Shown: one piece after another, positions 14,400-62,235 of the stretch
Position numbering within the stretch: position 1 is the stretch's first letter
Layout: every line of letters begins with the position of its first letter
Virus record (IMG/VR): IMGVR_UViG_3300037423_000296
Span: 11,541-75,540 of that record
Strand: one strand, 5' to 3'
Origin: a virus
Taxonomy: Duplodnaviria > Heunggongvirae > Uroviricota > Caudoviricetes
Length of the DNA: 64,000 nt
The notes under the pieces: model-generated
Told to the model about the DNA's origin: nothing
Database searches by the model: none
What the model saw: only the letters and a program-made list of their open reading frames with translations
Translations under genes and position numbers: made by a program

Positions 14400-14428
14400 A
14401 CTCTAGTGCGTGAGAGTCAGCCTGTCAA
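14400..14428 (-). promoter_or_regulatory. promoter TTGACA-N17-TAGAGT
   Basis: consensus match on minus strand. Confidence 0.55.
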
Positions 14429-14634
14429 GTCCTGATTAGATGACTTCCAGTCTTGTCTAGGTGCTTCTGGTTGATGGTCCATACGAACATGTCATAGTCA
14501 ACGTTGACAGTCACGGGCTCTTGCCTGTCCCTGAGATATACGCGGGTTGTCCCATGAGGGTCTAGCTCGTCTTCCTCAGCAAATACAATGTCGTCTGTCT
14601 CAATGAATTGAGACTTGGTTACTTGTACCTTCAT
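14425..14634 (-). CDS. hypothetical protein
   Basis: ORF track. Confidence 0.45.
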   Translation of the reverse strand: MKVQVTKSQFIETDDIVFAEEDELDPHGTTRVYLRDRQEPVTVNVDYDMFVWTINQKHLDKTGSHLIRT

Positions 14635-14887
14635 CGGCGGTCCTTGTGCTGAGCCGTGCTAATCCAGTTGAGAGAATGACGCCTGATGCTATTACCCAAT
14701 CCCTCTTCTCGGAGGGTACTCATGAGTGGCAAGAGTCCCAAGATTGAGAGTGTGGACGACCCAACGCCTCCACGCAGGAGAACACCTAGGCCTTCAGCCT
14801 CCTCGCGGGAAAGCTCCAGTGTGTAACCGCCCTTTTCGACAACGACTACCTCAGTAACGTCTTCTCGCTTTGTCAGTGTTGCCATAT
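14631..14887 (-). CDS. hypothetical protein (start at MATLTKRE)
   Basis: ORF track; longer ATG at 14909 lies inside iteron array. Confidence 0.45.
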
Positions 14888-14891
14888 TTGT

Positions 14892-14966
14892 GACCGAAAA
14901 TCCTTTCAATTATGAATGCCGACCGAAAATCTGACCGAAAATCGACCGAAATCTTGACCGAAAATC
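14892..14966. repeat. iteron-like array: 5 direct copies of GACCGAAA(A)TC, last four at about 11-12 bp spacing
   Basis: copies at 14892, 14921, 14933, 14944, 14956. Confidence 0.8.
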
Positions 14967-14984
14967 CATTTGAAATCAGATTTC

Positions 14985-15344
14985 TCACTCAATTTCAAAT
15001 TTGAGACGCTTGAGAATTTCTGAATTCCAACCCGCCGTGTATTCGTGCGTGGTGACATCGTGAGTGTTGTTATTGAAAAGGACGTGCCCCCAACCATGAA
15101 TGAATTCATCCCATCGGACCATGTACCCACATTCATCACACCAAGGCTTACGACCGTTATCTAGGTACTTTTGGTATGCCTGGTCAACATAAGGCTTACG
15201 TTCGTCCAGCAAGAGCCGGTGAATCGTCTGCCGAGTCTCCCACACCTTTTCGTCAGCGTAGAGATTGCCAGTGTGTGGACTGGGTAGATTCTCTACCTCG
15301 TTGATGAGCTTGTTTAGCAGGTTGATTGCTTCCCAGTCCTTCAC
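14985..15344 (-). CDS. hypothetical protein
   Basis: ORF track. Confidence 0.5.
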   Translation of the reverse strand: MKDWEAINLLNKLINEVENLPSPHTGNLYADEKVWETRQTIHRLLLDERKPYVDQAYQKYLDNGRKPWCDECGYMVRWDEFIHGWGHVLFNNNTHDVTTHEYTAGWNSEILKRLKFEIE

Positions 15345-15502
15345 TTGGCTTCCACCATCTCAATCTGGAAATTGTCAATGGTGAACAACTGAATAACCGG
15401 GTTGTTTCCGTCGAAGGTAATCTCCACACGCTCACCAGACGGCAAGTCAACAATTACCTTGTCGTCCTCATCGTTGATACAGCGCCGGTCGATGTTCCAC
15501 AT

Positions 15503-15700
15503 TTAGACTCCTACGAGTTGACGAGCTTCACGCTCTAGCTTCTCTACCTTTAGGGACAATGCTAGGTTCTCCTGCCGTAGCCTGTCAAGCTCAGCGAGGA
15601 CGGCAATGTGGTGCGAATCGTGCCGGGTTGTGTTGCGAACATCAACGCCACATTCGGCGCACATCTTTGCCTCTCCTACGCCAATGTAGGTAGGCTTCAT
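15503..15700 (-). CDS. hypothetical protein (CxxC, possible Zn-binding)
   Basis: ORF track. Confidence 0.4.
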   Translation of the reverse strand: MKPTYIGVGEAKMCAECGVDVRNTTRHDSHHIAVLAELDRLRQENLALSLKVEKLEREARQLVGV

Positions 15701-15909
15701 TTATACTTCACCTCTTTGTATGAAAATGGTTCGGGAACCCAGCGGACTCCCTGAATTGCATATCTAGTGTTAGGCTTGCCGTGCTGTCTAATCCAAGCTT
15801 CGGCTTCCCATTCGGTCAGGTGGTCAAGGAATACCTTAGACCAGAATGGAGTGTCAGCATTGGTCACGTATTCCCATACATGCCAGTAGCGATGAGGGTA
15901 ATTCTCCAT
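15697..15909 (-). CDS. hypothetical protein
   Basis: ORF track. Confidence 0.45.
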   Translation of the reverse strand: MENYPHRYWHVWEYVTNADTPFWSKVFLDHLTEWEAEAWIRQHGKPNTRYAIQGVRWVPEPFSYKEVKYK

Positions 15910-15911
15910 CC

Positions 15912-16136
15912 TTACTCCTTGGCCGATGGTTCGGGGTTGAGGAATAGGTCAAGATAGTCAGCAGCTTGTTCGGTGTTGCCGAGAGCCCGAATGACAACCC
16001 CGCGCTCGTGGAGAGCATCAAGCGACGGAGCAATCTCAGCCTTGAGACTGTCATCCACCTCACCAAGAAGCTTGACAGCCTTGTCAAGGGCAGCTTTTGC
16101 TCGCTCAACCTTCTGCCGGTCTGACTTCTTCATCAT
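15912..16136 (-). CDS. hypothetical protein
   Basis: ORF track. Confidence 0.45.
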   Translation of the reverse strand: MMKKSDRQKVERAKAALDKAVKLLGEVDDSLKAEIAPSLDALHERGVVIRALGNTEQAADYLDLFLNPEPSAKE

Positions 16137-16324
16137 TCCTCCGGTGGATTTCTCTCGATGTATGTTTGGATTGTCGTATAGCCACCGAGAGCACTTCTCT
16201 TTGCGAAGAATTCCATCATCCGCATGTATTCTTCGGCACCCTCAATTGGCTCTTCCATGTCCCATTCAAGGAGCATGCGCATTCGCACTCTAGCCATTAC
16301 TCTTCCGGCTTCTCGCCGGTCCAC
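16133..16324 (-). CDS. hypothetical protein
   Basis: ORF track. Confidence 0.4.
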   Translation of the reverse strand: MDRREAGRVMARVRMRMLLEWDMEEPIEGAEEYMRMMEFFAKRSALGGYTTIQTYIERNPPEE

Positions 16325-16593
16325 AATTCGTGGGCCGAAATGGTAGAAGCCTGCGGAGTCTGCCTCTGCATTGCCTCAGCTTCAATTGCCTGAGCCGCCG
16401 ATGCAAGCCCGTTGACGAATACGAATGCCTCACGCAGCGAGCGCAATTCCAAGTCCGCTCCGCTAGCCAGGTGGACAATGTATCGGTCTCCCGGCTTACG
16501 CGGGTCAAGAATCCACGAGCCAATCCGGCGCTTGTCAGCGTGCATCGTGAGAGCCCGCTCGACGGATTCCTTGCTGTAACCCTTGCCTGCCAT
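16297..16593 (-). CDS. hypothetical protein
   Basis: ORF track; RBS and promoter upstream. Confidence 0.5.
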   Translation of the reverse strand: MAGKGYSKESVERALTMHADKRRIGSWILDPRKPGDRYIVHLASGADLELRSLREAFVFVNGLASAAQAIEAEAMQRQTPQASTISAHELWTGEKPEE

Positions 16594-16628
16594 GATGTCT
16601 CCCTACCTAGTGTTCCGTTGATGTATCT

Positions 16629-16657
16629 AGACTAACAGAGTCTAGCTTGAGAGTCAA
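16629..16657 (-). promoter_or_regulatory. promoter TTGACT-N17-TAGTCT
   Basis: consensus match. Confidence 0.55.
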
Positions 16658-16828
16658 TCGTTGTCGTACGGACCAAAAGTGCGGGTGACATCGAAGGTGA
16701 AAATCCGACCTTCCTCATCCTCAACGTGAACAACGGTAGGATGAAAGGCGTCAACCCGGCAGTTGAGATTCGGGTCGTCCTCATTGAGCAGTCGGACAAT
16801 CTTGGTGGCGAGCTTGATTCTGGTCATT
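16655..16828 (-). CDS. small hypothetical protein (57 aa)
   Basis: manual ORF MTRIKLATKIV.., GGGAG RBS. Confidence 0.4.
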
Positions 16829-16839
16829 GTAACTCCCTG

Positions 16840-17130
16840 TTATCGCGGGTCTTTGTGGTATTTGTAATAGAAAGCCAGGTTCGAACGAAACCGCTCTTTG
16901 TACGAGCCGATAGCTCTCTCTAGTTCGTTCTCTGGCCCGTCAGGCAATGCCTCATCCAGCTTATTGACAATGTTTGCCATGATGGCAACTGCTTCGGCTA
17001 GGTCGGAATTCGCAACCTGCCAAGCTTTTCCCTGCTCTATTGCGTAGTCCACCTCCCAGTGAAGTCGGTTCAATGCCGAACGTGCATCGCGTGCACGGAT
17101 ATCAACTCCTACGAATTGCATCTTCGGCAT
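16840..17130 (-). CDS. hypothetical protein
   Basis: ORF track. Confidence 0.5.
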   Translation of the reverse strand: MPKMQFVGVDIRARDARSALNRLHWEVDYAIEQGKAWQVANSDLAEAVAIMANIVNKLDEALPDGPENELERAIGSYKERFRSNLAFYYKYHKDPR

Positions 17131-17143
17131 TGTGACTCCTCAG

Positions 17144-17167
17144 CTAGGGTGTATAGGTACACCCTAG
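17144..17167. repeat. perfect 10-bp hairpin ctagggtgta-tagg-tacaccctag
   Basis: read in sequence, intergenic. Confidence 0.5.
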
Positions 17168-17185
17168 CCAAGAGAGCCGGGATTG

Positions 17186-17629
17186 TCAATAGGCGGCAAC
17201 CCACCGGATTAGAAAGCGAGGGTCGAAAGAGCGAGAGCACTTGCCACAAGCCCTATTGCCACTAGGCTTACGGTGCCGCTTGATGATGTGACCATTCGGA
17301 CAAAGCCCGTGCCACTTGTAAGACACCTCTACCTTGTCAGCGCTGCAACGCTTGCCGTCACAGCCAATTGAGAGAGCCTTTCGACGCCATACCGCATCGT
17401 GGCCGTGGGAAGCTCCTACAAGCGCGTGAGCGATTTCGTGGAGCATGGTGTTTCGTACTGCCTCTTCGGTACGCTGCACCGTGAGAACCCGGCTCAGAGA
17501 GATAAGCCTGTCAGAGTGGCGGCAGCGTCCAAACCGGCTTTTGGCGTTGTCCCACTCGAATCTCCAGCCGGTCAAGCCGTGTGCGGCCATCAGCAGTTTG
17601 GCCTGTCGCTCAGCTTGGAAAAGGTCCAT
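17186..17629 (-). CDS. SprT-like zinc metalloprotease
   Basis: HEIAHAL (HExxH) followed by Cys-rich zinc ribbon (CPNGH..CGKC). Confidence 0.75.
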   Translation of the reverse strand: MDLFQAERQAKLLMAAHGLTGWRFEWDNAKSRFGRCRHSDRLISLSRVLTVQRTEEAVRNTMLHEIAHALVGASHGHDAVWRRKALSIGCDGKRCSADKVEVSYKWHGLCPNGHIIKRHRKPSGNRACGKCSRSFDPRFLIRWVAAY

Positions 17630-17696
17630 CGTCTTGCCCTTTCGGTCGATTTGCTTGGTGTAAGCTTACCAGCCTAGAGAGTGTGGGTCAAGCCCT

Positions 17697-17873
17697 AATT
17701 TGTGCGGGTACTGGGATTCGAACCCAGATATCAGTACGCTCGACATTGCTAGCATTTAGTCGAGACTAGACTGAGACTGTGCACCATCTCTGCCTAGAGA
17801 ACCATACTGCATTCGACGGAATTGCTCCCTTAGCCTTGCTCTTCACAAGCGGCTTTACCATTTGCCTATACCC
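17697..17873 (-). ncRNA. tRNA-like element (7-bp acceptor GCGGGUA/UACCCGC, D-arm, T-arm CUGGG-UUCGAAU-CCCAG) with about 100-nt insertion; identity unresolved
   Basis: manual folding; perfect acceptor pairing 177 nt apart. Confidence 0.35.
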
Positions 17874-19306
17874 GCATGAAGGGCTAGATGACCCCCGTTA
17901 AGAACCCATCTAGCCCTAGTGCTCTTCCGCACGACGGTTTGAGCAGTTAACCAATCAGGCACCTGACAAATGCTATTGGTTCTCTGTGCTTCCGGTTGTC
18001 AGCCTCACAGAGTGGGCTTATGCCTCCGTTATCTCAACCACCATTAGCACGGAAGCTACACTAATGGTGTGTAAAAGTGAAGAGAGCCAGCCGACGCATT
18101 GCATCACAGCAAAGCATTCAGTCTAAATGCCTTTCATCGTTGACTAGACGATTAAGCTCTCCCCAACTTGCGCTCCCAGCGGGAGTTGAACCCGCGCTAA
18201 TACATTGACAATGTATCGTGCTGCCGTAACACTTTGAGAGCAATCGCCGGGTTTTGTTAAGTGGCTCCCTGCTAATACCCGGCTGATTAGCAGAAATCTT
18301 GAGCCGATGAGTGAATGCGCCTACCCATTCCACAGGGCTTTAGTACGCATTCGCTAGTGGAATTCCCTAACTCGCCTTGAGCGTCGGGCTAGCCTCACCA
18401 CGTGTTTTTGTCGTTGCCATGACTAGTATTGGCTTTCCCGTCTCGCCAGACGTTCCACGCAATGAGTAACCTTTGACGTTATCGCCGGTTGCGGTCCTTG
18501 AATGCTACCCGGTAAACCGGACATCTTCACCTAACCTCACTGCCGCTCTATGCCTAAGGATGCTATTTATACTCGCATAGACGAGTGTTGAGGCGCATTA
18601 GCTGTCGTATGCTATGCGAATTGATAGGTCAGTCCGGGGCTCGTTCTACAGGTTCCAGCCTTCGCCACTTCAACCCGCTTCCACCCTAACCATTCCATTC
18701 TGGCTCTCCGCACAAGGGACTAGAACCCAAGCTCTCCTCAACGTGTCACCCCATCCGGTTAATTCCGGTCCTGCCAACCCCAGTTAAAGGCTGACTATGC
18801 TTTCCTGCTTAACGGCAGGCCTATACACTAATGGGAAGCTTATGGGGTGGACGCTAAGACCAGTGTTCTTCATTCCGGGCGTACCGGACTTCCACTTACG
18901 TCTCTTATCTAACACAAGACCCCGCAGAATTTCGAATCGGTGCCAGTTCACCCTGTGATTCTCCATTCTGACCCCGGCTTTTTCTAGCAAGCGTGACCAA
19001 GCCACCGGGGATTTGCTTTTGCTGGTGTGGGTGGCGTTTATACACTCTCCCCTAATCCGGGCGTACCCAGAAGCCACATGCCCATCTTGTCTAGTGTTAG
19101 ACCAGCAATTCGCTATTCAGTTGTCAAGGTGTTGCCTAACTTCCTTGGTTTGTATATCTTAATCTTGCCTTGATTCTCGGAGCTTGTCAAGTAGCTGTGG
19201 GAAGTTTTTCATCATCTCGGCCCACTGCTCAGACTCAGCCTTGAGACACTTGGCACACCGCTCCTCGTGCCAACCAGTAGTCTCACTACCCGGCTTGCAG
19301 TCGCAG

Positions 19307-19540
19307 TCAGTCATCCCTATACCAGTCTTTCAGGAACAGAGTCCCTACCTTGTGATACCGCCTGCCATATCGCCACTGTACTTCGCAACCGGCAGGACAT
19401 TGAAGCTTTGTTCGTGGACCAGCACCCTTGTTGGAAAGGGTTCTATGCCAAGTGGCTACAGCATGGCACTCTGGACACCTGTGAGGCTTGTCCTCGTTGC
19501 GCTTAACCCACCGCATACTGAGCCAGCTTAGCCTCTGCAA
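19307..19540 (-). CDS. hypothetical Cys-rich (zinc-finger-like) protein
   Basis: ORF track; CPEC..CPAGC. Confidence 0.4.
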   Translation of the reverse strand: MQRLSWLSMRWVKRNEDKPHRCPECHAVATWHRTLSNKGAGPRTKLQCPAGCEVQWRYGRRYHKVGTLFLKDWYRDD

Positions 19541-19946: not shown

Positions 19947-20150
19947 CTAAACCTTGAGAGTCTTGTCAAGGCCTTTAGCCTTCTTCAAGGCCAAATCCGC
20001 GACTTCTTCGTAGTCCCAACAGCTAAAACTCTCAGCCTTGACAGTCTCCATGGCTTCATCCCAAAGCTCATTCAGGTGGTCTACCTCGTACTGGTCGTTT
20101 CGCCTGCGAGCCTTCCAAATGAGATTGTTGAATTGCTCAAGCCGGGTCAT
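19947..20150 (-). CDS. hypothetical protein
   Basis: ORF track. Confidence 0.45.
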   Translation of the reverse strand: MTRLEQFNNLIWKARRRNDQYEVDHLNELWDEAMETVKAESFSCWDYEEVADLALKKAKGLDKTLKV

Positions 20151-20993: not shown

Positions 20994-21022
20994 AGCTTAG
21001 CGTACCGGGAGGAGCTTGTCAA
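20994..21022 (-). promoter_or_regulatory. promoter TTGACA-N17-TAAGCT
   Basis: consensus match. Confidence 0.5.
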
Positions 21023-21823: not shown

Positions 21824-21853
21824 AGCCTATCAAGCGGGATAAGCCGATGTCAA
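21824..21853 (-). promoter_or_regulatory. promoter TTGACA-N18-TAGGCT
   Basis: consensus match. Confidence 0.5.
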
Positions 21854-22700: not shown

Positions 22701-23072
22701 TTATGCAGCCGCGTAACGGCTCCTATCTAGCGTTTTGTGCTGGTCCCACTTAGTGTTTACCCAGACAGTCTTGCACCGCCAAGGCTTATCCCCGTTGGGA
22801 ATCAATACTATGCAAAGGTCACGCTGGTCGTCAAGGCGACCGCGAAAAAGAATCTTGGAAACGGTTTTACCGACCATTCCAACCTCAATTACCCGCATCC
22901 TGTGCAGGCTGAGAGTCTTGGGAAGCCGGATTTCTCCGTAGCGGTCGGCGCGAGCTTCAGCGCGAGCGTGAGAGTCAGGACTGGAACCGTAGTTGATTTC
23001 GATGCGGTGAGTCGGGGCCACAAAGCCCTTGGGGAGTCCGAGTTCAGCGTGGTAAAGCGTCTCAGTCAGCAT
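22701..23072 (-). CDS. hypothetical protein
   Basis: ORF track. Confidence 0.5.
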   Translation of the reverse strand: MLTETLYHAELGLPKGFVAPTHRIEINYGSSPDSHARAEARADRYGEIRLPKTLSLHRMRVIEVGMVGKTVSKILFRGRLDDQRDLCIVLIPNGDKPWRCKTVWVNTKWDQHKTLDRSRYAAA

Positions 23073-23079
23073 GTGTAAG

Positions 23080-23109
23080 AGACTACAGCCTGACTGAGAC
23101 GCTTGTCAA
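23080..23109 (-). promoter_or_regulatory. promoter TTGACA-N18-TAGTCT
   Basis: consensus match. Confidence 0.5.
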
Positions 23110-23372
23110 CCCTTATTCAGAGACTCAAGCCAGTCTCTTACAGCAGACTCCAGCATGTCTTCGGCGTAATCGATTTCGTCGCCTGCATGAGGATTCTCCG
23201 GACGCTCGTCGGCAGACTGCCAGGCATTCTTGAGTCGCGTGGCCCAGATTACCACAATGGACAAATCGCTTGGAGGATTGCCGGTAGAAATTCCGTAATC
23301 CTCTGCCATTCCCCTAATGAATCCCCACTCCTCTTCCTGAGTCGCAAGGCGGGTTTCGTAGAAATCACTCAT
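23106..23372 (-). CDS. hypothetical protein
   Basis: ORF track. Confidence 0.5.
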   Translation of the reverse strand: MSDFYETRLATQEEEWGFIRGMAEDYGISTGNPPSDLSIVVIWATRLKNAWQSADERPENPHAGDEIDYAEDMLESAVRDWLESLNKG

Positions 23373-24013: not shown

Positions 24014-24042
24014 AGCCTATCTGACTAGCTAGAGTTTGTCAA
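24014..24042 (-). promoter_or_regulatory. promoter TTGACA-N17-TAGGCT
   Basis: consensus match. Confidence 0.55.
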
Positions 24043-24248: not shown

Positions 24249-24322
24249 AATAGTAGTGATTGTGTAACGCCATTCACAGTCTATCGTAGGAGACTTGCCA
24301 TGTCAACGAAGGAAAACCTTCT

Positions 24323-25596: not shown

Positions 25597-25626
25597 ACTC
25601 TACCTTGAGAGTCTTGAGGTTGTCAA
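25597..25626 (-). promoter_or_regulatory. promoter TTGACA-N18-TAGAGT
   Basis: consensus match. Confidence 0.5.
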
Positions 25627-26268: not shown

Positions 26269-26297
26269 AGTCTAGTCTGAGAATGTCGGCCTGTCAA
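26269..26297 (-). promoter_or_regulatory. promoter TTGACA-N17-TAGACT
   Basis: consensus match. Confidence 0.55.
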
Positions 26298-26587
26298 GCA
26301 TCGCCGTCCATCAGCTTCCGGAAGAAACGCTTGATACCCTCGCGTCGAGCAATCCGGCGAGAATGCCTGAGTTCCTGTTCGGTCAATGGGTAATCGGCAT
26401 GCCGACTCCGGTAATTCCGGTCGTCTTGGCAGAATTGGCATGGACAAATACTCTGAAAATGCTTCATTAGATTGACCCCGGCTTTCTGCGGGAGGTACTT
26501 AGCGACTTGGCGAGAGGAAACCTGATAGCCGTACCGGGGTCTTCCGATGTTTACTGTTACCAGCTTACCAGAAAACCCCGATTTCCG

Positions 26588-27739: not shown

Positions 27740-27768
27740 AGTCTAACCTAGGGTCAGACTAATGTCCA
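27740..27768 (-). promoter_or_regulatory. promoter TGGACA-N17-TAGACT
   Basis: consensus match. Confidence 0.5.
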
Positions 27769-30112: not shown

Positions 30113-30141
30113 ACTCTACCGGAGTCTACCTAGACTGTCAA
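30113..30141 (-). promoter_or_regulatory. promoter TTGACA-N17-TAGAGT
   Basis: perfect -35, consensus -10. Confidence 0.6.
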
Positions 30142-30997: not shown

Positions 30998-31579
30998 TCA
31001 GTTGTCGTCGCTGACGGAAACTCCACCCTCAGGCCATCCCTTTCGGACTCCCCAAGAGCCGTTCACCTTAGCGTGCCACTTCTTCCCAGTCTTGTCAATG
31101 AAGTGCGTGAAACCCTCGCTGTCAGGAAACTCGCTCACAACCCTGAGAGTCATGCCCTGCGGGTTGCAGACGAAGTTACCGAAGGCGAACACCTTCTCGT
31201 ACCACGAAAGCGGCGGGTGAGTCGGCTTACCATCCTCGCCAAGCTTGACAGCGTTGGACGGCTTACCCTCAACGATGACAGCCTCACGACTATTGTTCGG
31301 GGTTGAAGCCTTGCGAATCCGCTTCGGGCCACTTTCAGCCCGCTCCTGCGCCGCAAGAACGTGCGCCGGAAGCTTAAAGACGACACCCTCAGACTCAGCC
31401 TTGGCAATAGCCTCCTTGGCAGCAGGACTCATTCGGCCCCGGCCCATCTTGGCAAGTCCGAGACTCGCGGCATACTCACGCGCAGTCATCTCCGAACGCT
31501 TGTCCATAGTTGCAGTAAGCACTTTCTCTCCTTCAGTAGGTTGTGTCTCAACCCTAACAGACTCAAGTTTGGGAGTCAA
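30998..31579 (-). CDS. protein with Lsr2-type C-terminal-domain-like DNA-binding motif (REYAASLGLAKMGRGRMSPAAKEAIAKA) near N-terminus
   Basis: spacing-identical match to REWARKNGYDINARGRIPFSVMDAFTKA of the Lsr2 at 62317. Confidence 0.55.
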   Translation of the reverse strand: MTPKLESVRVETQPTEGEKVLTATMDKRSEMTAREYAASLGLAKMGRGRMSPAAKEAIAKAESEGVVFKLPAHVLAAQERAESGPKRIRKASTPNNSREAVIVEGKPSNAVKLGEDGKPTHPPLSWYEKVFAFGNFVCNPQGMTLRVVSEFPDSEGFTHFIDKTGKKWHAKVNGSWGVRKGWPEGGVSVSDDN

Positions 31580-31978: not shown

Positions 31979-32030
31979 TTCAGTTTCTCCTTCTTGTTCC
32001 GGTTGTGGGCTTGTTGCCCCGTTGAGTAAG

Positions 32031-32060
32031 ACTCTAGGGCCAGACTGTCTAGCTTGTCAA
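32031..32060 (-). promoter_or_regulatory. promoter TTGACA-N18-TAGAGT
   Basis: consensus match. Confidence 0.5.
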
Positions 32061-32074
32061 CCCTACTTCCCGAA

Positions 32075-32424: not shown

Positions 32425-32453
32425 ACACTATCGGTAACTCTCGTGCCTGTCAA
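32425..32453 (-). promoter_or_regulatory. promoter TTGACA-N17-TAGTGT
   Basis: consensus match. Confidence 0.55.
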
Positions 32454-32510: not shown

Positions 32511-32684
32511 CGAAAGTGCGTTCGAGTGCAATCTTTCAAACGATTGATTCAATCGAACGTTTGTTCGAATACCTCGCGGGGCTGTCGAACAGGTGTTCGG
32601 TTGCTCGCGGGCACCCGAAACCAATTTTTGCCCTTTACGAAAGGGTCCAAAAGTGTACGGGACTTTTTCGCCCTTTACGAAAGG
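32511..32684. promoter_or_regulatory. regulatory region with CGAAMR-NN-YGTTCG palindromes (32511, 32554, 32586) and two CCCTTTACGAAAGG hairpin motifs 40 bp apart (32631, 32671)
   Basis: direct reading. Confidence 0.6.
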
Positions 32685-32869
32685 TCACCGATTTCGACGG
32701 GACTTAAAATCCGAGATTCGGATTGCTCGTGTGTACGTCGTCGGAATTCCGGCTCCTCGTACTCAATCTCTTCTTCCGGCCAATCAAATTCCACAAGACC
32801 ATACCAGACTTCTGTGCTGGGGTCTACAATTAACTCGACATACATGATGCCTCCCGAGTTAATTATACC

Positions 32870-33628: not shown

Positions 33629-33656
33629 GAAACCCGGCCTTTTTCGACCGGGTTTC
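33629..33656. repeat. hairpin gaaacccgg-N10-ccgggtttc (possible terminator)
   Basis: read in sequence. Confidence 0.45.
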
Positions 33657-33727
33657 AACCAGAATACAACCAGATGACCAGAAATGCGACCGAAAATCCA
33701 GCCAAAAGCCCCAGTGTGACTAGAATT

Positions 33728-33943: not shown

Positions 33944-34176
33944 TCTACCTCCACCCGAGTGATTGCTCCACCGTCGTCAATGTAGAAGAAGCCCCCTTCC
34001 TTAGACCCGCCGACTGCCCGGTTACCATGCAAGTCGGGGTAGGCAAGGATGTCTTGAACAGTACAGCCGTTCTCTTTGTCCTGCTCTCGACGGGCATCCT
34101 CGAAGTTCCAAAAGGCTCGTGGTCCTGAGTTCCGACCTTCATAAATCCAAACTATAGCCAAATTGTTATGCCTCAA
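33940..34176 (-). CDS. hypothetical protein
   Basis: ORF track. Confidence 0.45.
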   Translation of the reverse strand: MRHNNLAIVWIYEGRNSGPRAFWNFEDARREQDKENGCTVQDILAYPDLHGNRAVGGSKEGGFFYIDDGGAITRVEVE

Positions 34177-40848: not shown

Positions 40849-40936
40849 AAAATCGGGTTTTTAGGAGCCCGTCTCCTGCCAGGTGTTTCACTGGCTGCCC
40901 TGATGTTTCTATTCTATCAGAGCGTTTGCACCACTG

Positions 40937-41239
40937 TCAAGCCGATGTCTCAGGGGTTGTTTGTGTTGGGGCTTTTGAGGTATCTCCCTGACCCATCTTA
41001 TACTTGATGAACTCGTCCATTAGAGCGTAGTACTTCACACGCCACTTGTCAAGCTCTTCTTCTGTCTTGGCAAGCTCTAGACGAAGTTCTTTAATGTCTG
41101 ACCGCAACTCGTTACGAAAGTCTGTTGCAGTGTCATCTTTAGATTTAGACCTGTTTAGCCAGTGCTCGATGACCTTCAGTCCGGAACCCCCGAGAAGAGC
41201 ACCAATGAGTGCTAGCCAAGCCTGATTAATTTCCGGCAT
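40937..41239 (-). CDS. membrane/coiled-coil protein
   Basis: ORF track. Confidence 0.45.
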   Translation of the reverse strand: MPEINQAWLALIGALLGGSGLKVIEHWLNRSKSKDDTATDFRNELRSDIKELRLELAKTEEELDKWRVKYYALMDEFIKYKMGQGDTSKAPTQTTPETSA

Positions 41240-41663: not shown

Positions 41664-41716
41664 GGTCTAATTATAGCCCGGAACGGATTAGGTGCCAAAA
41701 AGGTAACTCTCAGTAA

Positions 41717-42213: not shown

Positions 42214-42548
42214 GATACCTTCCTCTCAATTGCATCCCAAATTTCTTGAGTTTTGTGTGAATTCTTGTTCTTGTCTGGCTTACCGGAGCCATTCCAGTAA
42301 ACGCCACCCCAAACGCCAAACTCGCCATTCTGGAGTCCAGCAAAAAAGCAGTCTTTAATGACTGGGCATCCGAGACACACCGCGTCGGCTGCCTTAGCAA
42401 TCTCGGTGTCAGATTCGTATTTGTCGCAGAAAATTTCCGGCTCAAGATGTTGGCAGGCAGCCAAGTGATGCCATTCGAATTCTTCCGGGTCAACTCCGAG
42501 ACTTTCTAGCAGTGAAGACATCCTTCTTGCTAACCTCCCAATTGCCAT
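42210..42548 (-). CDS. whiB: WhiB-like (Wbl) Fe-S transcription factor
   Basis: four Cys (C..C..CLGCP..C) plus GVWGG motif. Confidence 0.8.
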   Translation of the reverse strand: MAIGRLARRMSSLLESLGVDPEEFEWHHLAACQHLEPEIFCDKYESDTEIAKAADAVCLGCPVIKDCFFAGLQNGEFGVWGGVYWNGSGKPDKNKNSHKTQEIWDAIERKVS

Positions 42549-42735: not shown

Positions 42736-42870
42736 TGTTAGTTAATCCTTTCATTTGTAGGAAACATCATGGTTTAATATTAACATGTGCTTAACATGAG
42801 AGTCAAGCGTTTGTTTGACGCTTTTGCCAAACAAAACCCGGCAATGTCATTTTGGTGACCATTGCCGGGG

Positions 42871-43399: not shown

Positions 43400-43450
43400 T
43401 GTTAAAACTATTTTAGCAAAAGAGAGGGGACTTTGGCAAGTCCCCTCTCT
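43400..43450 (-). terminator. intrinsic terminator (agagaggggac/gtcccctctct stem, U-run)
   Basis: read in sequence downstream of 43456..43758. Confidence 0.65.
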
Positions 43451-48312: not shown

Positions 48313-48342
48313 TATCATATCCTATAAGACTCTAGCCTGTCA
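48313..48342 (-). promoter_or_regulatory. promoter TTGACA-N18-TATGAT
   Basis: consensus match. Confidence 0.5.
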
Positions 48343-48423
48343 ACGTGGACGCGGCGGTGGAGGAGGTGGTGGTGCAGGTAGTTGTGACGGGTCATCATGT
48401 GGTTCCCATGGATTTCTCATAAG

Positions 48424-52995: not shown

Positions 52996-53147
52996 AATAA
53001 GCAGCGCTCTTCCGCTGAGCTACCCGAACTTTTACATAAGGGGCTGGATTCGAACCAGCGACCTCTGCTGTCGGTAGCGCTCTGCCATTGAGCTACAACC
53101 CCGGTTGCCCGAAGCTGGCGGGACTCGAACCCGCAACCTCTACCACG
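52996..53147 (-). pseudogene. cluster of degenerate tRNA-like pieces (5' half GUUCGGG-UAGCUCAGCGGAAGAGC; near-complete tRNA-like with T-arm GCUGG-UUCGAAU-CCAGC but acceptor missing about 4 nt; T-arm GCGGG-UUCGAGU-CCCGC)
   Basis: manual folding; no canonical cloverleaf recoverable. Confidence 0.35.
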
Positions 53148-53557: not shown

Positions 53558-53936
53558 TATGTGCACCCCTCCACCAACTTAGGATGATGCACTGCTAAGT
53601 TTCCACCCGCCGTGGTAACGAATCTCAACCTAGCTTATTTATTGTATCACTCTTCTGATGTCCGCGTCAACTCTGCATTACAAGCCAGAACCATGATAAT
53701 CGCACCGAACATCAACAGGATTTCTGCCTGACACAAGAGAATAAAGCTTGAGACTGACATGCTCCAGAAGCCAAACCAGAGAGTTTTCCTATACACGATT
53801 TGCTTCTACTTCCTGCCGTAGTTGTGCAAGTCGCTCACTAAGCCGGTCGGCCTGCGACGTTTCGGCTTTTAGCACCTGCGCCTTCGGGTCTTTCAGAGAA
53901 TCGCGGTTCTTGTAACGTCTCGGGTAATACTCCACG

Positions 53937-55108: not shown

Positions 55109-55423
55109 CTAAGGCAAATATACTTTTGCCAAGTTATTGTCTACAAGTAGTTTATTGAGACTTTCAGTACCGGCGAAAACCTCTGCCAGCCAGCGACCGT
55201 ACTTCTCTTTCTTGTAGGTATTGATTGTAACTGTTGGATTCTTTGCAAAGAAGGACTTTACGAAGGCTGTTGCCTCTGCCCATCCTACCTGACCACGCTC
55301 TGGCGTGTCAATTCCATACAATCTGAAAACCGTATCAACTCTAATATCAAATCCCAGGTCTACTGTTAGTTCTACAGTATCACCATCTACCGCTCTAACA
55401 AAGTCTGCCTTGTATTGGTACAT
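55109..55423 (-). CDS. thermonuclease (staphylococcal nuclease-like, SNase domain)
   Basis: VRAVDGDTVEL..RLYGIDTPE..KYGRWLA motifs. Confidence 0.8.
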   Translation of the reverse strand: MYQYKADFVRAVDGDTVELTVDLGFDIRVDTVFRLYGIDTPERGQVGWAEATAFVKSFFAKNPTVTINTYKKEKYGRWLAEVFAGTESLNKLLVDNNLAKVYLP

Positions 55424-56424: not shown

Positions 56425-56805
56425 CTACGTGCGCGCTGATGGAGTCGAACCACCCGAGCCCGAAGACAACTGTTTTACAGACAGTCCCGCTACCTCTACG
56501 GAATAAGCACGCATTGCAAGTTGGTTTCTAATCAACTTGCTCTTGTAGTAGCTTACTCGACGCCTTCTCAGTCTGTCAAGCTTATCCGGCAGAGTTTCTG
56601 TAGTTTCATCTTGAACTACTTCTGTTCTTGCCGCTTGCCAGCTTGAGAATGACCCCAAGAACAAGGCTACCATGGATACTACACTTACGAAAACCACACT
56701 CTCAAGCCAGCCAATGTAGTAACTCAAGATAGTGAATGGCAACCAGAATAGTGTACACCATCCGTGGAATGCTCTCAAAACCCGTGGATTTTCGTAAAAT
56801 TTCAT
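56425..56805 (-). CDS. membrane protein (2 TM); 3' part of ORF overlaps tRNA-Tyr so true end uncertain
   Basis: ORF track; overlap with 56430..56512 tRNA. Confidence 0.35.
   Translation of the reverse strand: MKFYENPRVLRAFHGWCTLFWLPFTILSYYIGWLESVVFVSVVSMVALFLGSFSSWQAARTEVVQDETTETLPDKLDRLRRRRVSYYKSKLIRNQLAMRAYSVEVAGLSVKQLSSGSGGSTPSART
56430..56512 (-). tRNA. tRNA-Tyr (GUA), long variable arm
   Basis: manual cloverleaf; loop CUGUAAA. Confidence 0.8.
56560..56590 (-). promoter_or_regulatory. promoter TTGACA-N18-TAAGCT upstream of tRNA-Tyr
   Basis: consensus match. Confidence 0.45.
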
Positions 56806-56981: not shown

Positions 56982-57056
56982 ATACTTCATTTATTCTATC
57001 ATACTTTCTTGATGCGAGTCAAGAAGGGCGGGCTTCCCCAGATAGCCCGCGCCATC

Positions 57057-60118: not shown

Positions 60119-60183
60119 AAAACCCGAACCACGAGGGAGCGGGTGGTTAATAACTCAAGTTTACCAGAACCCGCGCATTCTTG

Positions 60184-60390
60184 TCAACTAACAATGTGGA
60201 CGACGAACCATGCGAAGAAGATTCCAGATACAACCAACCATACCGTGCGTCCAAGGTGAGTGTCAACCCTGAACCACTTACGAAGATGCTCTGAGAGCGT
60301 GTCTTCGTCTACGTCATTGGAGATTGCTACAGCCTCAATAATAGCGAAGCTGACAATCCATAATACCCACAAGACATTCCAGATGTTCAT
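60184..60390 (-). CDS. small membrane protein
   Basis: ORF track; two hydrophobic segments. Confidence 0.45.
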   Translation of the reverse strand: MNIWNVLWVLWIVSFAIIEAVAISNDVDEDTLSEHLRKWFRVDTHLGRTVWLVVSGIFFAWFVVHIVS

Positions 60391-60629
60391 TCTTCTCCCA
60401 GGGATAGCTTATGTTCTACACTGATTAGGTCTAGACACTTCTGGCATACTGGGATAACGATTGGACCAAATTCTGTTGATGCAGTAATTTCACCAACCGC
60501 TGGATTTCCGTCAGTGAACAGTACCTCTGGGTTTTCAGAGTCAGTCCAAGTAATCCCGCACATCTGCTGAATCTGGATGTTATTACCCATTGCTTCGATG
60601 CTACTTTTGATTTGGCTTAGGTCGTTCAC
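60387..60629 (-). CDS. hypothetical protein
   Basis: ORF track. Confidence 0.45.
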   Translation of the reverse strand: MNDLSQIKSSIEAMGNNIQIQQMCGITWTDSENPEVLFTDGNPAVGEITASTEFGPIVIPVCQKCLDLISVEHKLSLGEE

Positions 60630-60780
60630 TGTCTACCTTGAAACTGTTGATGTCTACTCCGCACGTAGAGCCCTCGCCAAATGCGTCATGGACAGCATCA
60701 ATGGCATCGGCAAGGTCGAATGCTTCGACCTCAACCTCTAGGCTTACGTGCAACACATATCTTTCCATGCCTCTATTGTA

Positions 60781-60975
60781 CTACGAATTCTTTCCTCGTA
60801 GCCACCAGTCGGCCAAATCTACAGAGCAGTTTCCGCAGATTTCTCCTCTATCATCCACTGCCAGAACCGGCCCATTCTCATTGAACTGAGACTCAAGCCT
60901 TAGACTGACAATGCCAAGCGCCTTAAACTGAGAGACTACCTTGTTACAGTTCGGCCTTGCGCAAATTGTTGCCAT
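60781..60975 (-). CDS. zinc-ribbon protein (start at MATICARPNC)
   Basis: CARPNC..CGNC. Confidence 0.4.
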   Translation of the reverse strand: MATICARPNCNKVVSQFKALGIVSLRLESQFNENGPVLAVDDRGEICGNCSVDLADWWLRGKNS

Positions 60976-61516
60976 CAAGCACCTCCTTAAGATAGTTGTA
61001 TCTAACAATGTTAAACTTAGCATCTTCAAGAGCGTTGTGCAAGCCTTCCGGCTGCTTAGGCATGTCACAGTACTTAGCTAGTTTGTGTAGCTGCTTGATA
61101 TCGTAGGTCACCATCGGTACCTCGGGTGGAAGGTCAACCATCTTGCCAAAGAGTTGGGCTAGGCATACATGGTCATAGGCACTGTACCATGCCCATAGTT
61201 CTGCTGGCTGTCCTTGGCCGACAAATTCCAAGACCCCGCGCTTAATCTCCTCGCGGCTCATGGCTGCCGGGTCTGTGATGTCGAAGTCTCGATAGACAGG
61301 AAATCCTTCGGCATCGACAACAGCGTACGACTCATGGTCAATAGAAGACATAACATTCTCCATGAGCCACCAATGAGTTGCTACCCTGGAAGTGTCGAAT
61401 TCATTAGACACAGCGTAGAAAGTCTCATCTGTCTCGTAGTTCACGATTCCGATACTGATAAGGTCGATAATCTTTCCATCTTCATGGAATTCACAGTCAT
61501 AGAAAAACTTACTCAT
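60944..61516 (-). CDS. DEDDh-family 3'-5' exonuclease (DnaQ/RNase T-like)
   Basis: Exo I YDCEFHEDG, Exo II AWYSAYD, Exo III HNALEDAKFN motifs. Confidence 0.8.
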   Translation of the reverse strand: MSKFFYDCEFHEDGKIIDLISIGIVNYETDETFYAVSNEFDTSRVATHWWLMENVMSSIDHESYAVVDAEGFPVYRDFDITDPAAMSREEIKRGVLEFVGQGQPAELWAWYSAYDHVCLAQLFGKMVDLPPEVPMVTYDIKQLHKLAKYCDMPKQPEGLHNALEDAKFNIVRYNYLKEVLDGNNLRKAEL

Positions 61517-61691
61517 TACTCACAATCCAAAATAGTATTCAATTCGATGCCCTCCAGAACAAAAGTATAGCGTCTCCTGAGGAACTTCACCGGCTGCCGC
61601 GACGACTCCATTTGTAATGAATGCCAGCTTGAAAGTCCTGATACCAACCAGTCTGTCATCACAAGTAGCTCCGCACCACGCACACTCTTTC

Positions 61692-61958
61692 TCAGACATT
61701 GAAAGTCAGTGTTTCCTTTAGTGTAGTTGTGTCGATATCCCAATCAACAACCCCGGCTGTCACTGCGTTGAGAATCGCTAGGTCAGCTTGGTTGCGATGA
61801 GCCCAGTAGATTTCTGGGCAAAGTTCTAGTGCCTGCTTGATATTCAGCACGTACAGTGGCTCTCCGTTATCATCTGGTCCCACATAGTCATACACACCCA
61901 TAGTAACCAGTGCATCGAAATCTGTAACTGCGTCCATATTGTGAGACCTCCATATCAT
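61692..61958 (-). CDS. hypothetical protein
   Basis: ORF track. Confidence 0.5.
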   Translation of the reverse strand: MIWRSHNMDAVTDFDALVTMGVYDYVGPDDNGEPLYVLNIKQALELCPEIYWAHRNQADLAILNAVTAGVVDWDIDTTTLKETLTFNV

Positions 61959-61992
61959 AGAGAAAGGCCACTACCGAAGTAGTGGCCTCTTG

Positions 61993-62065
61993 CGCGCTAG
62001 AGAGGATTCGAACCTCCGACCGCTTGATTCGTAGTCAAGTACTCTATCCGCTGAGCTACTAGCGC
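61993..62065 (-). tRNA. tRNA-Arg (ACG)
   Basis: manual cloverleaf; loop CUACGAA. Confidence 0.85.
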
Positions 62066-62093
62066 ATGCTTTATACTAGCCCTTATGGGGCAG

Positions 62094-62166
62094 TGGGAAC
62101 TTAGGGAATCGAACCCTACTCTCTCGGGCTTCAACCGAGCGCATCTACCACTTCTACTTAGTCCCC
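62094..62166 (-). tRNA. tRNA-Phe (GAA)
   Basis: manual cloverleaf; loop UUGAAGC; D-arm imperfect. Confidence 0.7.
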
Positions 62167-62206
62167 TTGTAACAAGTAGTACCAGTGTAGCATCTGATTC
62201 AAACGC

Positions 62207-62235
62207 TTGTCAAGTAACGACTTCAGAACTAGTGC
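62207..62235 (+). promoter_or_regulatory. promoter TTGTCA-N17-TAGTGC upstream of lsr2
   Basis: same consensus as minus-strand promoters. Confidence 0.5.

What the first reader, a model, noticed from the sequence alone, without database searches (positions are those of the whole stretch)
14400..62235. Phage-wide promoter signature TTGACA-N17/18-TAG(A/T/G)(C/G)T, mostly one per minus-strand gene
I found at least 15 matches on the minus strand: 14400, 16629, 20994, 21824, 23080, 24014, 25597, 26269, 27740, 30113, 32031, 32425, 48313, 56560. One is on the plus strand before lsr2 (62207). They sit 20-80 nt upstream of start codons with near-perfect -35 TTGACA and a -10 of TAGAGT, TAGACT, TAGTCT, TAGGCT or TAAGCT. 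This is a sigma70-type promoter with a constrained -10 that diverges from the host's. It may reflect recognition by a specific host sigma factor, or one modified by the phage.
Basis: seen in the sequence. Interest (0 to 1): 0.55.

Follow-up and report, generated by a model that had tools for sequence, protein, structure and literature searches.

The report
Host-type early promoters of an actinophage
The repeated TTGACA…TAGNNT signature is a real, dense array of about 29 strong promoters of the ordinary host (Streptomyces-type) kind in the early-gene and tRNA arm of a new actinophage. Its -10 box matches host usage rather than diverging from it, so the feature is sound but ordinary.

Summary
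The signature is real. TTGACA-N17/18-TAGNNT occurs 15 times on the minus strand against 0.22 expected. TTGACA-N17/18-TANNNT occurs 26 times on the minus strand and never on the plus strand.

The sites are intergenic, on the coding strand, and lie 28-65 nt before start codons, 6-7 nt before an ATG (five leaderless cases), or 11-84 nt before tRNA genes. One site is conserved in position in relatives.

The window is a new relative of the Streptomyces phages Gilson and Jay2Jay (Stanwilliamsviridae), which carry the same one-strand promoter arrays.

TAGGCT, TAGGGT, TAGAGT and TAGACT are common -10 hexamers at mapped Streptomyces lividans start sites, and TATAAT is absent there. The -10 is therefore host-like, not divergent, and no sigma factor is encoded in the window.

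The array is also not phage-wide, nor one per gene. There are two blocks:
- 14.4-32.5 kb: 16 promoters for 53 genes, -10 TAG[AGT][CG]T, spacer mostly 17.
- 40.9-62.8 kb: 13 promoters, mostly before tRNAs, -10 TGnTAnAAT-like, spacer mostly 18.

The plus-strand "lsr2" site is not a match. In 5 of the 16 first-block promoters the spacer contains the reverse complement of the -10 core, which remains unexplained.

The parts
14400..14428 (-). Class I promoter TTGACA-N17-TAGAGT
   Evidence: Intergenic, 65 nt before the gene that starts at 14334. The spacer holds ACTCT, the reverse complement of the -10 core.
16629..16657 (-). Class I promoter TTGACT-N17-TAGTCT
   Evidence: 35 nt before the start at 16593. 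Inverted repeat CTAGACT/AGTCTAG with 7-bp arms overlaps the -10.
17161..17189 (-). Class I promoter TTGACA-N17-TAGGGT
   Evidence: 30 nt before the start at 17130. An 11-bp inverted repeat includes the -10.
17663..17691 (-). Class I promoter TTGACC-N17-TAAGCT
   Evidence: 33 nt before the SprT-like gene that starts at 17629.
20994..21022 (-). Class I promoter TTGACA-N17-TAAGCT
   Evidence: Intergenic, 146 nt before the predicted start at 20847.
21824..21853 (-). Class I promoter TTGACA-N18-TAGGCT
   Evidence: 39 nt before the start at 21784.
23080..23109 (-). Class I promoter TTGACA-N18-TAGTCT, leaderless
   Evidence: The ATG at 23072 is 7 nt after the -10. A 15-bp inverted repeat brackets the -10.
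24014..24042 (-). Class I promoter TTGACA-N17-TAGGCT, leaderless
   Evidence: The ATG at 24007 (212-aa ORF) is 6 nt after the -10.
24278..24306 (-). Class I promoter TTGACA-N17-TAGACT
   Evidence: 44 nt before the start at 24233. The spacer holds AGTCT, the reverse complement of the -10 core.
25597..25626 (-). Class I promoter TTGACA-N18-TAGAGT, leaderless
   Evidence: The ATG at 25589 is 7 nt after the -10. The spacer holds ACTCT.
26269..26297 (-). Class I promoter TTGACA-N17-TAGACT
   Evidence: 31 nt before the start at 26237. Its spacer is 79% identical to that of promoter 14400 (family D5).
27740..27768 (-). Class I promoter TGGACA-N17-TAGACT
   Evidence: 45 nt before the start at 27694. 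The spacer holds AGTCT.
30113..30141 (-). Class I promoter TTGACA-N17-TAGAGT before the DUF932 gene
   Evidence: 37 nt before the start at 30075. A promoter sits at the same position before the orthologous gene in Gilson, Comrade and a metagenomic relative, although the spacer has diverged.
31551..31579 (-). Class I promoter TTGACT-N17-TAGGGT
   Evidence: 28 nt before the start at 31522. A strong hairpin lies just upstream.
32031..32060 (-). Class I promoter TTGACA-N18-TAGAGT
   Evidence: 52 nt before the start at 31978. 74% identical over 47 nt to promoter 23080 (family D6).
32425..32453 (-). Class I promoter TTGACA-N17-TAGTGT
   Evidence: 44 nt before the start at 32380.
40911..40940 (-). 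Class II promoter TTGACA-N18-(TGa)TAGAAT
   Evidence: 62 nt before tRNA-Glu.
41670..41698 (-). Class II promoter TTGGCA-N17-TATAAT, leaderless
   Evidence: The ATG at 41663 is 6 nt after the -10.
42777..42806 (-). Class II promoter TTGACT-N18-(TGt)TAATAT
   Evidence: 41 nt before the start at 42735. A terminator-like hairpin lies upstream.
43410..43439 (-). Class II promoter TTGCCA-N18-(TGc)TAAAAT
   Evidence: Intergenic, 278 nt before tRNA-Thr.
48314..48343 (-). Class II promoter TTGACA-N18-TATGAT, leaderless
Evidence: The ATG at 48307 is 6 nt after the -10.
53641..53670 (-). Class II promoter TTGACG-N18-(TGa)TACAAT
   Evidence: 84 nt before tRNA-Asn.
55282..55311 (-). Class II promoter TTGACA-N18-TAGGAT
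   Evidence: 172 nt before the tmRNA 5' end. It lies inside a weakly predicted ORF, so it is less certain.
56550..56579 (-). Class II promoter TTGACA-N18-TAAGCT
Evidence: 37 nt before tRNA-Tyr.
56993..57022 (-). Class II promoter TTGACT-N18-(TGa)TAGAAT
   Evidence: 11 nt before the tRNA-Met pair. A terminator-like hairpin lies upstream.
60158..60187 (-). Class II promoter TTGACA-N18-(TGg)TAAACT
   Evidence: 39 nt before tRNA-Ala.
62184..62213 (-). Class II promoter TTGACA-N18-(TGc)TACACT
Evidence: 17 nt before tRNA-Phe.
62762..62832 (-). Two tandem class II promoters: TTGACA-N17-TACGAT (62762-62790) and TTGACA-N18-TACAGT (62803-62832)
   Evidence: Both lie just beyond the 3' end of lsr2 and point antisense through it.
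62207..62235 (+).
   Evidence: The sequence is TTGTCA-N17-TAGTGC, with no T at the last -10 position. lsr2 starts at the ATG at 62317. The alternative TTGACT(62235)-N17-TACAAC also lacks the final T.

Best explanation
These are about 29 strong promoters read by the unmodified host RNA polymerase carrying its principal sigma factor (HrdB/SigA type). They drive the early, non-structural arm of a new lytic actinophage of the Stanwilliamsviridae kind.

Each has a perfect or near-perfect -35 (TTGACA), a 17- or 18-bp spacer, usually G at -14, and a TANNNT -10. RNA polymerase should start 6-7 nt after the -10. That gives SD-led mRNAs, leaderless mRNAs that begin at the ATG, or tRNA and tmRNA precursors. 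Because the host's own promoters rarely match the -35 consensus so well, the array should capture host polymerase immediately after infection.

Shown here: the sequence anatomy, the enrichment, the strand and position relative to genes, conservation in relatives, and the match to host -10 usage.

Inferred: recognition by HrdB, early timing and promoter strength.

The promoters fall into two architectures by region. Class I (14.4-32.5 kb) has G-n-TAG[AGT][CG]T and mostly a 17-bp spacer. Class II (40.9-62.8 kb, the tRNA region) has TGnTAnAAT-like -10s and mostly an 18-bp spacer. I take these to be two strength or regulation flavours of the same sigma's promoters.
For: - Enrichment: 26 TTGACA-N17/18-TANNNT sites on the minus strand, 0 on the plus strand, 0.43 in shuffles. 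With at least 5 of 6 matches in the -35, the counts are 47 against 8.
- Spacing: almost only 17 or 18 nt, 26 of 34 hits when spacings of 10-25 nt are allowed.
- G at -14 in 24 of 29 sites, and TG in 9 of 13 class II sites.
- 33 of the 47 sites lie in the roughly 20% of the sequence that is intergenic, all on the coding strand.
- Distances are 28-65 nt to SD-led starts, 6-7 nt to an ATG in five cases, and 11-84 nt to tRNAs. The host makes 17-22% leaderless mRNAs and starts on average 6.3 nt after the -10 (PMC8079986, PMC4895711).
- The promoter before the DUF932 gene is kept at the same position in Gilson, Comrade and a metagenomic relative, while its spacer diverges.
- Gilson has 41 such sites on the gene strand against 1 on the other, and Jay2Jay 40 against 6. 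They are concentrated in the tRNA and small-gene arm and nearly absent from the structural and replication modules.
- Host -10 usage from mapped S. lividans start sites includes the phage's hexamers at high frequency.
- The host genus is inferred from the relatives and from Lsr2, WhiB-like and SsgA-like genes.
- No sigma domain was found in the window.
- A Streptomyces phage promoter, SF14 from phage I19, is already a standard strong constitutive promoter (PMC7460540).
Against: - There is no transcript data, so start sites, timing and strength are inferred.
- The host of this particular phage is not known; it is inferred from relatives with only 36-62% protein identity.
- Only about half of the genome is in the window, so a phage sigma or polymerase modifier could be encoded elsewhere.
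- Class I -10s are much narrower than host usage: 14 of 16 fall within 6 of the 64 TANNNT hexamers. A plain 'any host promoter' model does not by itself explain that.
- 13 of the 47 relaxed hits lie inside ORFs, which is about the background level, so a few listed sites may be false.
Confidence: 0.85

Rival explanations
1. The TAG[AGT][CG]T -10 defines a promoter class that differs from host housekeeping promoters and is read by a particular alternative host sigma, or by a sigma altered or supplied by the phage.
For: - Class I -10s are narrowly distributed: 14 of 16 have TAG at positions 1-3, all 16 have C or G at position 5 and none has A.
- The window encodes a WhiB-like protein at 42210-42521. 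That family binds the principal sigma factor (PMC13013590, abstract listed).
Against: - The same hexamers are among the commonest -10s at mapped S. lividans start sites.
- A perfect TTGACA -35 at 17-18 nt is the housekeeping architecture.
- No sigma-factor Pfam domain was found among 158 ORFs.
- Early promoters must work before any phage protein exists.
- Relatives on the same host genus favour other hexamers, for example TAAGGT in 10 of 41 Gilson sites. The preference therefore tracks phage lineage, not a host sigma.
Confidence: 0.05
2. Class I promoters are regulated host-type promoters whose -10 has a second role. A short inverted repeat pairs a spacer pentamer with the -10 core, forming the site for a phage or host regulator (or a hairpin in read-through RNA). 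This would shut class I off or time it separately from class II.
For: - 5 of 16 class I spacers contain the exact reverse complement of -10 positions 2-6, against 0.23 expected and 0 of 5000 shuffles. None of 13 class II spacers does.
- Four promoters have inverted repeats at or beyond the 5.5% tail of their own shuffles, with arms of 15, 11, 9 and 7 bp, that overlap or bracket the -10.
- The classes differ at -10 position 3 (p = 7e-4), position 5 (p = 7e-5) and TG (p = 0.03). They also differ in spacer length, with 17 nt in 12 of 16 class I sites against 2 of 13 class II sites (not tested).
- There is a weak echo in Jay2Jay: 3 of 40, p about 0.009.
Against: - The arm spacing varies from 5 to 11 nt, which does not fit a rigid dimer operator.
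- The arms are only 5 bp.
- 11 of 16 class I promoters lack the repeat.
- It is absent in Gilson, 1 of 41.
- No DNA-binding regulator other than Lsr2 and WhiB-like proteins was identified.
- The class split was defined after looking at the data. It replicates only partly in Gilson (position 5, p = 0.017) and not in Jay2Jay.
Confidence: 0.15
3. The promoters act like the PeSL (promoter-early stem-loop) cassettes of T4-type phages. They are repeated regulatory modules between small accessory genes, whose mutual similarity promotes recombination and gene shuffling in addition to transcription.
For: - They form dense arrays between small, mostly unannotated ORFs.
- Some promoter pairs share similarity beyond the hexamers: 23072-23118 and 32023-32069 are 74% identical over 47 nt, and 14402-14429 and 26271-26298 are 79% identical.
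- PeSLs of RB49/phi1 have near-perfect TTGACA-N17-TATAAT promoters and sit in hyperplastic regions (PMC4122927).
Against: - No consistent stem-loop accompanies the promoters. The mean folding z-score of the 60 nt upstream is 0.03 for class I and -0.7 for class II, and only three or four sites have a clear hairpin.
- Most spacers are dissimilar.
- No closely related genome pair is available to look for indels at these sites.
Confidence: 0.12
4. These are chance matches or non-promoter repeats.
For: About 8 of the 47 relaxed matches are expected by chance, and 13 lie inside ORFs.
Against: A 60-fold excess, absolute strand bias, restriction to 17/18 spacing, intergenic placement and conservation in relatives.
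Confidence: 0.01

Closest known systems
Streptomyces / actinobacterial housekeeping (HrdB / SigA) promoters: nTGACn - about 17 nt - TANNNT, often with G or TG upstream of the -10
   Same: Same hexamers, spacing, G at -14, start distance and share of leaderless genes. The phage's -10 hexamers are among the common ones at mapped S. lividans start sites.
   Different: The phage sites match the -35 consensus far better than typical host promoters, where the -35 is only weakly conserved. The class I -10 set is much narrower than host usage. The phage DNA is about 50% G+C, whereas the Streptomyces genomes in the cited maps are about 70% or more (PMC8780764).
Early promoter arrays of large lytic phages read by unmodified host polymerase (T4 and T5 early promoters; SF14 from Streptomyces phage I19)
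   Same: Many near-consensus host-type promoters, all on one strand, in the arm that holds small accessory genes and tRNAs. SF14 shows that Streptomyces phage promoters can be very strong in the host. The T4 and T5 comparison rests on my own knowledge.
   Different: No timing or strength data exist here. The hexamer preferences are actinobacterial (TAGNNT) rather than TATAAT. No A+T-rich upstream element is visible.
PeSL composite promoter-terminator cassettes of T4-type phages (PMC2839356, PMC4122927)
   Same: Near-perfect sigma-70 promoters repeated between ORFan genes in plastic regions, with some copies similar beyond the hexamers.
   Different: The defining stem-loop partner is not consistently present. 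A link to indels could not be tested.
Promoter arrays in Streptomyces phages Gilson (Loccivirinae) and Jay2Jay (Boydwoodruffvirinae)
   Same: Same layout: 40-41 TTGACA-N17/18-TANNNT sites on the gene strand, concentrated in the tRNA and small-gene arm, with an orthologous promoter before the DUF932 gene.
   Different: Each lineage has its own favoured -10 and spacer features. Gilson favours TAAGGT, often with GGG before the -35 and an AAGCTT palindrome in the spacer. The window phage favours TAGAGT and TAGACT. These arrays are not annotated in the records. The word 'promoter' does not occur in the three genome papers on these phages that I found.

Membership tests
Principal-sigma (sigma-70 / HrdB / SigA) promoters | -35 hexamer close to TTGACA | tested here: met
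   21 of the 29 listed sites are exact and 8 have one mismatch. TTGACA occurs 52 times on the minus strand against 19 on the plus strand and about 15 expected.
Principal-sigma (sigma-70 / HrdB / SigA) promoters | -10 hexamer TANNNT at 16-19 nt, optimum 17 | tested here: met
   The spacing distribution peaks only at 17 (10 sites) and 18 (16 sites) when 10-25 nt is allowed.
Principal-sigma (sigma-70 / HrdB / SigA) promoters | Extended -10 (G at -14, or TGn), common in actinobacteria | tested here: met
   G at -14 in 12 of 16 class I and 12 of 13 class II sites. TG in 4 of 16 and 9 of 13.
Principal-sigma (sigma-70 / HrdB / SigA) promoters | Lies upstream of a gene on the same strand, at a distance that fits a 5' UTR or a leaderless start | tested here: met
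   28-65 nt to SD-led starts, 6-7 nt to an ATG (five sites), 11-84 nt to tRNAs. 33 of 47 relaxed hits are intergenic.
Principal-sigma (sigma-70 / HrdB / SigA) promoters | Transcription starts 5-8 nt after the -10 and depends on the HrdB holoenzyme | not testable with these tools
   Needs dRNA-seq and in vitro transcription.
   Class I hexamers are common host -10s in the S. lividans TSS table, and the -35 is the canonical TTGACA.
   No sigma Pfam domain in 158 window ORFs. A WhiB-like protein is present. About half of the genome lies outside the window.
PeSL (promoter-early stem-loop) cassettes | Near-consensus early promoter | tested here: met
PeSL (promoter-early stem-loop) cassettes | Conserved stem-loop or terminator fused to the promoter | tested here: not met
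   The upstream 60 nt fold no better than shuffles on average (z = 0.03 for class I, -0.7 for class II). Clear hairpins occur at only a few sites.
PeSL (promoter-early stem-loop) cassettes | Sits at the end points of gene indels between close relatives | not tested
   No close relative was found: megablast found nothing, and the best proteins are 36-62% identical.
Leaderless mRNA genes of actinobacteria | -10 box ends 5-9 nt before an ATG or GTG, with no Shine-Dalgarno sequence | tested here: met
   Five sites (23080, 24014, 25597, 41670, 48314), all with ATG 6-7 nt after the -10. That is 5 of 29, about 17%, as in the hosts.

The most novel reading that the evidence does not exclude
The two architectures are two separately controlled promoter classes of one phage. 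Class I (TAG[AGT][CG]T, 17-bp spacer, spacer pentamer complementary to the -10) would be switched off or timed by a phage factor, such as a small DNA-binding protein or the WhiB-like protein acting on the host sigma. Class II (TGnTAnAAT, 18-bp spacer) would keep tRNA and tmRNA synthesis running. The narrow class I -10 would then be a regulatory code laid over a host promoter.
Probability: 0.15. Interest if true: 0.5.

Novelty: new member of a known kind. Interest (0 to 1): 0.25.

Why it matters
The result gives a usable transcription map for half of an uncharacterised Streptomyces-type phage: about 29 start points, five leaderless genes and the promoters of the tRNA and tmRNA clusters. It also shows that the whole Stanwilliamsviridae group carries unannotated arrays of near-consensus host promoters.

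Such promoters are candidates for strong, compact expression parts in actinomycetes, as SF14 already is. They also mark which genes are probably expressed first.

It does not point to a new transcription mechanism. The one open point is why the -10 of one block is so narrow and is often mirrored in its spacer.

Tried and rejected
- Megablast of 12 kb against the phage records found nothing. Identity had to come from protein and distant-DNA searches.
- An exact-protein look-up of the DUF932 protein found no source contig.
- Whole-window k-mer over-representation was uninformative.
- The E. coli-tuned promoter scan was barely above its shuffles, 18 against 12.9. It scores against TATAAT, so it is not a good detector here.
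- A fixed operator overlapping class I promoters was rejected. The best inverted repeats differ from site to site, and most are no better than shuffles.
- A PeSL-type stem-loop partner was rejected.
- The spacer/-10 inverted repeat as a family-wide feature was rejected: 1 of 41 in Gilson.
- The two-class split as a family-wide rule was only partly supported: Gilson at position 5 only, Jay2Jay not at all.
- A plus-strand promoter for lsr2 was looked for by eye in the sequence. No candidate with a proper TANNNT was found.
- Strohl 1992, the classical TTGACPu / TAGPuPuT consensus that I recall, is not held in the library. I used the TSS-map papers instead.

Full report
**What the window is.** It has about 50% G+C. 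It carries 32 tRNA genes and a tmRNA, all on the minus strand between 18 and 62 kb. Nearly all genes from 6.6 to 64 kb are on the minus strand, and those in 1-6 kb are on the plus strand.

There is no near-identical phage record. Its rIIA-like protein is about 36% identical, and its DUF932 protein about 62% identical, to proteins of Streptomyces phages such as Gilson, Comrade and Jay2Jay. These belong to the family Stanwilliamsviridae, which has genomes of 125-135 kb, many tRNAs and a tmRNA.

The window also encodes Lsr2 (62317-62673, plus strand), a WhiB-like protein (42210-42521) and an SsgA-like protein (34173-34571). To my knowledge SsgA-like proteins are confined to sporulating actinomycetes. 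I therefore take the host to be Streptomyces or a close relative. This is an inference, not a known fact.

- TTGACA-N17/18-TAGNNT occurs 15 times, all on the minus strand, against 0.22 expected.
- Relaxing the -10 to TANNNT gives 26 minus-strand and 0 plus-strand sites, against 0.43 in shuffles. Allowing one -35 mismatch gives 47 against 8.
- When any spacing from 10 to 25 nt is allowed, only 17 and 18 are populated above single counts.
- TTGACA itself occurs 52 times on the minus strand and 19 times on the plus strand.

At 48313 the real -10 is TATGAT, and the TAGAGT lies in the spacer. The plus-strand site at 62207 is TTGTCA-N17-TAGTGC, with no terminal T. It is just the other strand of the -35 of the promoter in front of tRNA-Phe.

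'One per gene' is too strong, since there are 16 promoters for 53 predicted genes. 'Phage-wide' is also too strong, since there are none in 1-14.3 kb or 32.5-40.9 kb.

**Are they promoters?** Everything that sequence alone can show says yes.
- They are on the coding strand.
- 33 of the 47 relaxed hits fall in the roughly 20% of the sequence that is intergenic.
- 24 of the 29 curated sites have G two bases before the -10, and 9 of 13 in the second block have TG.
- The -10 ends 28-65 nt before Shine-Dalgarno-led start codons or 11-84 nt before tRNA genes. In five cases it ends 6-7 nt before an ATG with no room for a ribosome-binding site, which means leaderless mRNAs.
- That share, 5 of 29, and the 6-7 nt distance match Streptomyces: 17-22% leaderless transcripts and a mean -10-to-start distance of 6.3 nt (PMC4895711, PMC8780764, PMC8079986).
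- The promoter before the DUF932 gene is at the same place in Gilson, Comrade and a metagenomic relative. The -35 and a TAG-type -10 are kept while the spacer has diverged.

**Family context.** Gilson has 41 TTGACA-N17/18-TANNNT sites on its gene strand and 1 on the other. Jay2Jay has 40 and 6. In both they are concentrated in the tRNA and small-gene arm and nearly absent from the structural and replication modules. None is annotated in the records. The three genome papers on these phages that I found (PMC5764925, PMC7650747, bioRxiv 10.1101/2024.02.16.580700) do not contain the word promoter. The array is therefore a property of the group and marks what is most likely the early region.

**Does the -10 diverge from the host's?** No.

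Genome-wide start-site maps of S. coelicolor, S. avermitilis and S. lividans all give TANNNT and nTGACn. A review gives TASVDT / TTGACN as the HrdB consensus used for synthetic libraries, and TAGGAT as the ermEp1 -10 (PMC12809767).

The S. lividans promoter table (Table S5 of PMC8079986) lists the mapped upstream sequences. Each promoter is counted about twice, once in the upstream sequence and once in the motif column. The occurrence counts are TAGGCT 99, TACGCT 81, TAGGGT 66, TACCCT 53, TACGAT 52, TAGCCT 42, TAGGAT 37, TAGCAT 37, TAGAGT 36, TAGACT 24, TAAGCT 19, TACACT 18, TAGTGT 15, TAGTCT 12, TAAGAT 12, TACAAT 9, TAGAAT 7 and TATAAT 0.

The phage's TAG[AGT][CG]T hexamers are thus ordinary, even favoured, host -10s. 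It is the second block's TAGAAT, TATAAT and TACAAT that are unusual for the host. No sigma-factor domain was found among the 158 ORFs of the window. Promoters that must fire before any phage protein exists cannot depend on one.

Relatives on the same host genus favour other hexamers, for example TAAGGT in 10 of 41 Gilson sites. The preference therefore follows phage lineage rather than a host sigma.

**Two architectures.** By region, the 16 sites at 14.4-32.5 kb and the 13 sites at 40.9-62.8 kb differ as follows.

| Feature | 14.4-32.5 kb | 40.9-62.8 kb | p |
|---|---|---|---|
| G at -10 position 3 | 14/16 | 3/13 | 7e-4 |
| A at -10 position 5 | 0/16 | 9/13 | 7e-5 |
| TG before the -10 | 4/16 | 9/13 | 0.03 |
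| 17-nt spacer | 12/16 | 2/13 | not tested |

The split was made after seeing the data. It replicates only for position 5 in Gilson (p = 0.017) and not at all in Jay2Jay. I therefore treat it as a real feature of this phage with uncertain meaning.

**An unexplained detail.** In 5 of the 16 first-block promoters the spacer contains the exact reverse complement of -10 positions 2-6 (ACTCT…AGAGT or AGTCT…AGACT). Only 0.23 are expected, and none of 5000 shuffles reached 5. None of the 13 second-block promoters has it.

The arm spacing varies from 5 to 11 nt, which argues against a simple dimer operator. Four promoters have longer inverted repeats around the -10, with arms of 15, 11, 9 and 7 bp, but these differ from each other. 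Gilson lacks the feature and Jay2Jay shows a weak echo.

Some promoter pairs are similar beyond the hexamers, which suggests descent by duplication. A T4-style PeSL reading fails on the stem-loop criterion.

**Verdict.** This is a sound observation of an ordinary kind of feature: host-type early promoters in a new member of a known phage family, with lineage-specific preferences. The proposal of a host-divergent -10 and a special sigma is not supported.

Noticed in passing
window 18533-18586 (-), inside the non-coding stretch 18242-19158: Rfam Pistol self-cleaving ribozyme hit above the gathering score (37.9 against 34.5 bits, E = 0.0024). It sits in a 0.9-kb ORF-free region next to tRNA-Asp. 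The whole 17630-19158 stretch lacks ORFs.
   Followed up: no
window minus strand at 32641, 32681, 33608, 34782, 37256, 44329, 55264; Gilson (L006-L008); Jay2Jay (L009, L011): The motif TTCGTAAAG is strand-specific. It occurs 7 times on the gene strand and never on the other strand in the window, and 11 against 1 in Gilson. In Jay2Jay it occurs 5 times on the plus strand and never on the minus strand. In four of the seven window copies (32641, 32681, 33608, 34782) it forms the apex of a hairpin (CCTTT-CGT-AAAGG). TTTCGTAAAGG occurs 4 times exactly. This looks like a conserved RNA-level element of the family.
   Followed up: partly
window 14886-14984 and 33650-33700 (-): Five iteron-like copies of (A)TTT(T)CGGTC lie within about 75 bp (14892-14965) of one intergenic region. 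One exact copy plus degenerate copies lie at 33.7 kb. The repeat is not found as an array in Gilson or Jay2Jay.
   Followed up: partly
window 32625-32704: Two tandem 40-nt repeats, 75% identical, each carrying the CCTTTCGTAAAGGG hairpin. They lie just upstream of promoter 32425-32453 (family D9).
   Followed up: no
window 62317-62673 (+) and 62762-62832 (-): lsr2 is a lone plus-strand gene inside the minus-strand stream. It has no consensus promoter of its own. Two strong minus-strand promoters just beyond its stop codon point antisense through it towards tRNA-Phe.
   Followed up: partly
window 42210-42521 (-): WhiB-like protein with four Cys residues and a GVWGG motif (Pfam Whib, E = 5.7e-12). 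Such proteins bind the principal sigma factor, so it is a candidate modulator of host polymerase later in infection.
   Followed up: partly
window 34173-34571 (-): SsgA-like protein (PF04686, 25.5 bits against a cut-off of 25). This is a sporulation and cell-division family of Streptomyces-type actinomycetes. It is a hint to the host and to possible interference with host development.
   Followed up: partly
window 14335-14399 (-): A G+C-rich hairpin followed by a T-run (CCGGGgaaaaCCCCGGattttc) lies between promoter 14400 and its gene start at 14334. That is a terminator-like structure inside a 5' leader.
   Followed up: no
window 53037-53102 (-): An extra weak tRNA-like Rfam hit (34.6 bits) that ARAGORN did not call.
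   Followed up: no
Gilson, L007 about 2100-19400 (record 102-120 kb): Gilson's distal-arm promoters often read GGG-TTGACA-…CC-AAGCTT-G-TA[AG]G[GC]T. They have a GGG…CCC pair bracketing the -35 and an AAGCTT palindrome in 5 spacers. This is a lineage-specific spacer signature that differs from the window phage.
   Followed up: partly
window 19964-19969 (-): TTGACAAGACTCTCAAGG… is 87% identical over 23 nt to the core of promoter 25597-25626, but it has no -10 at 17/18 nt. It runs straight into an SD and ATG. It appears to be a decayed promoter copy (family D20).
   Followed up: no
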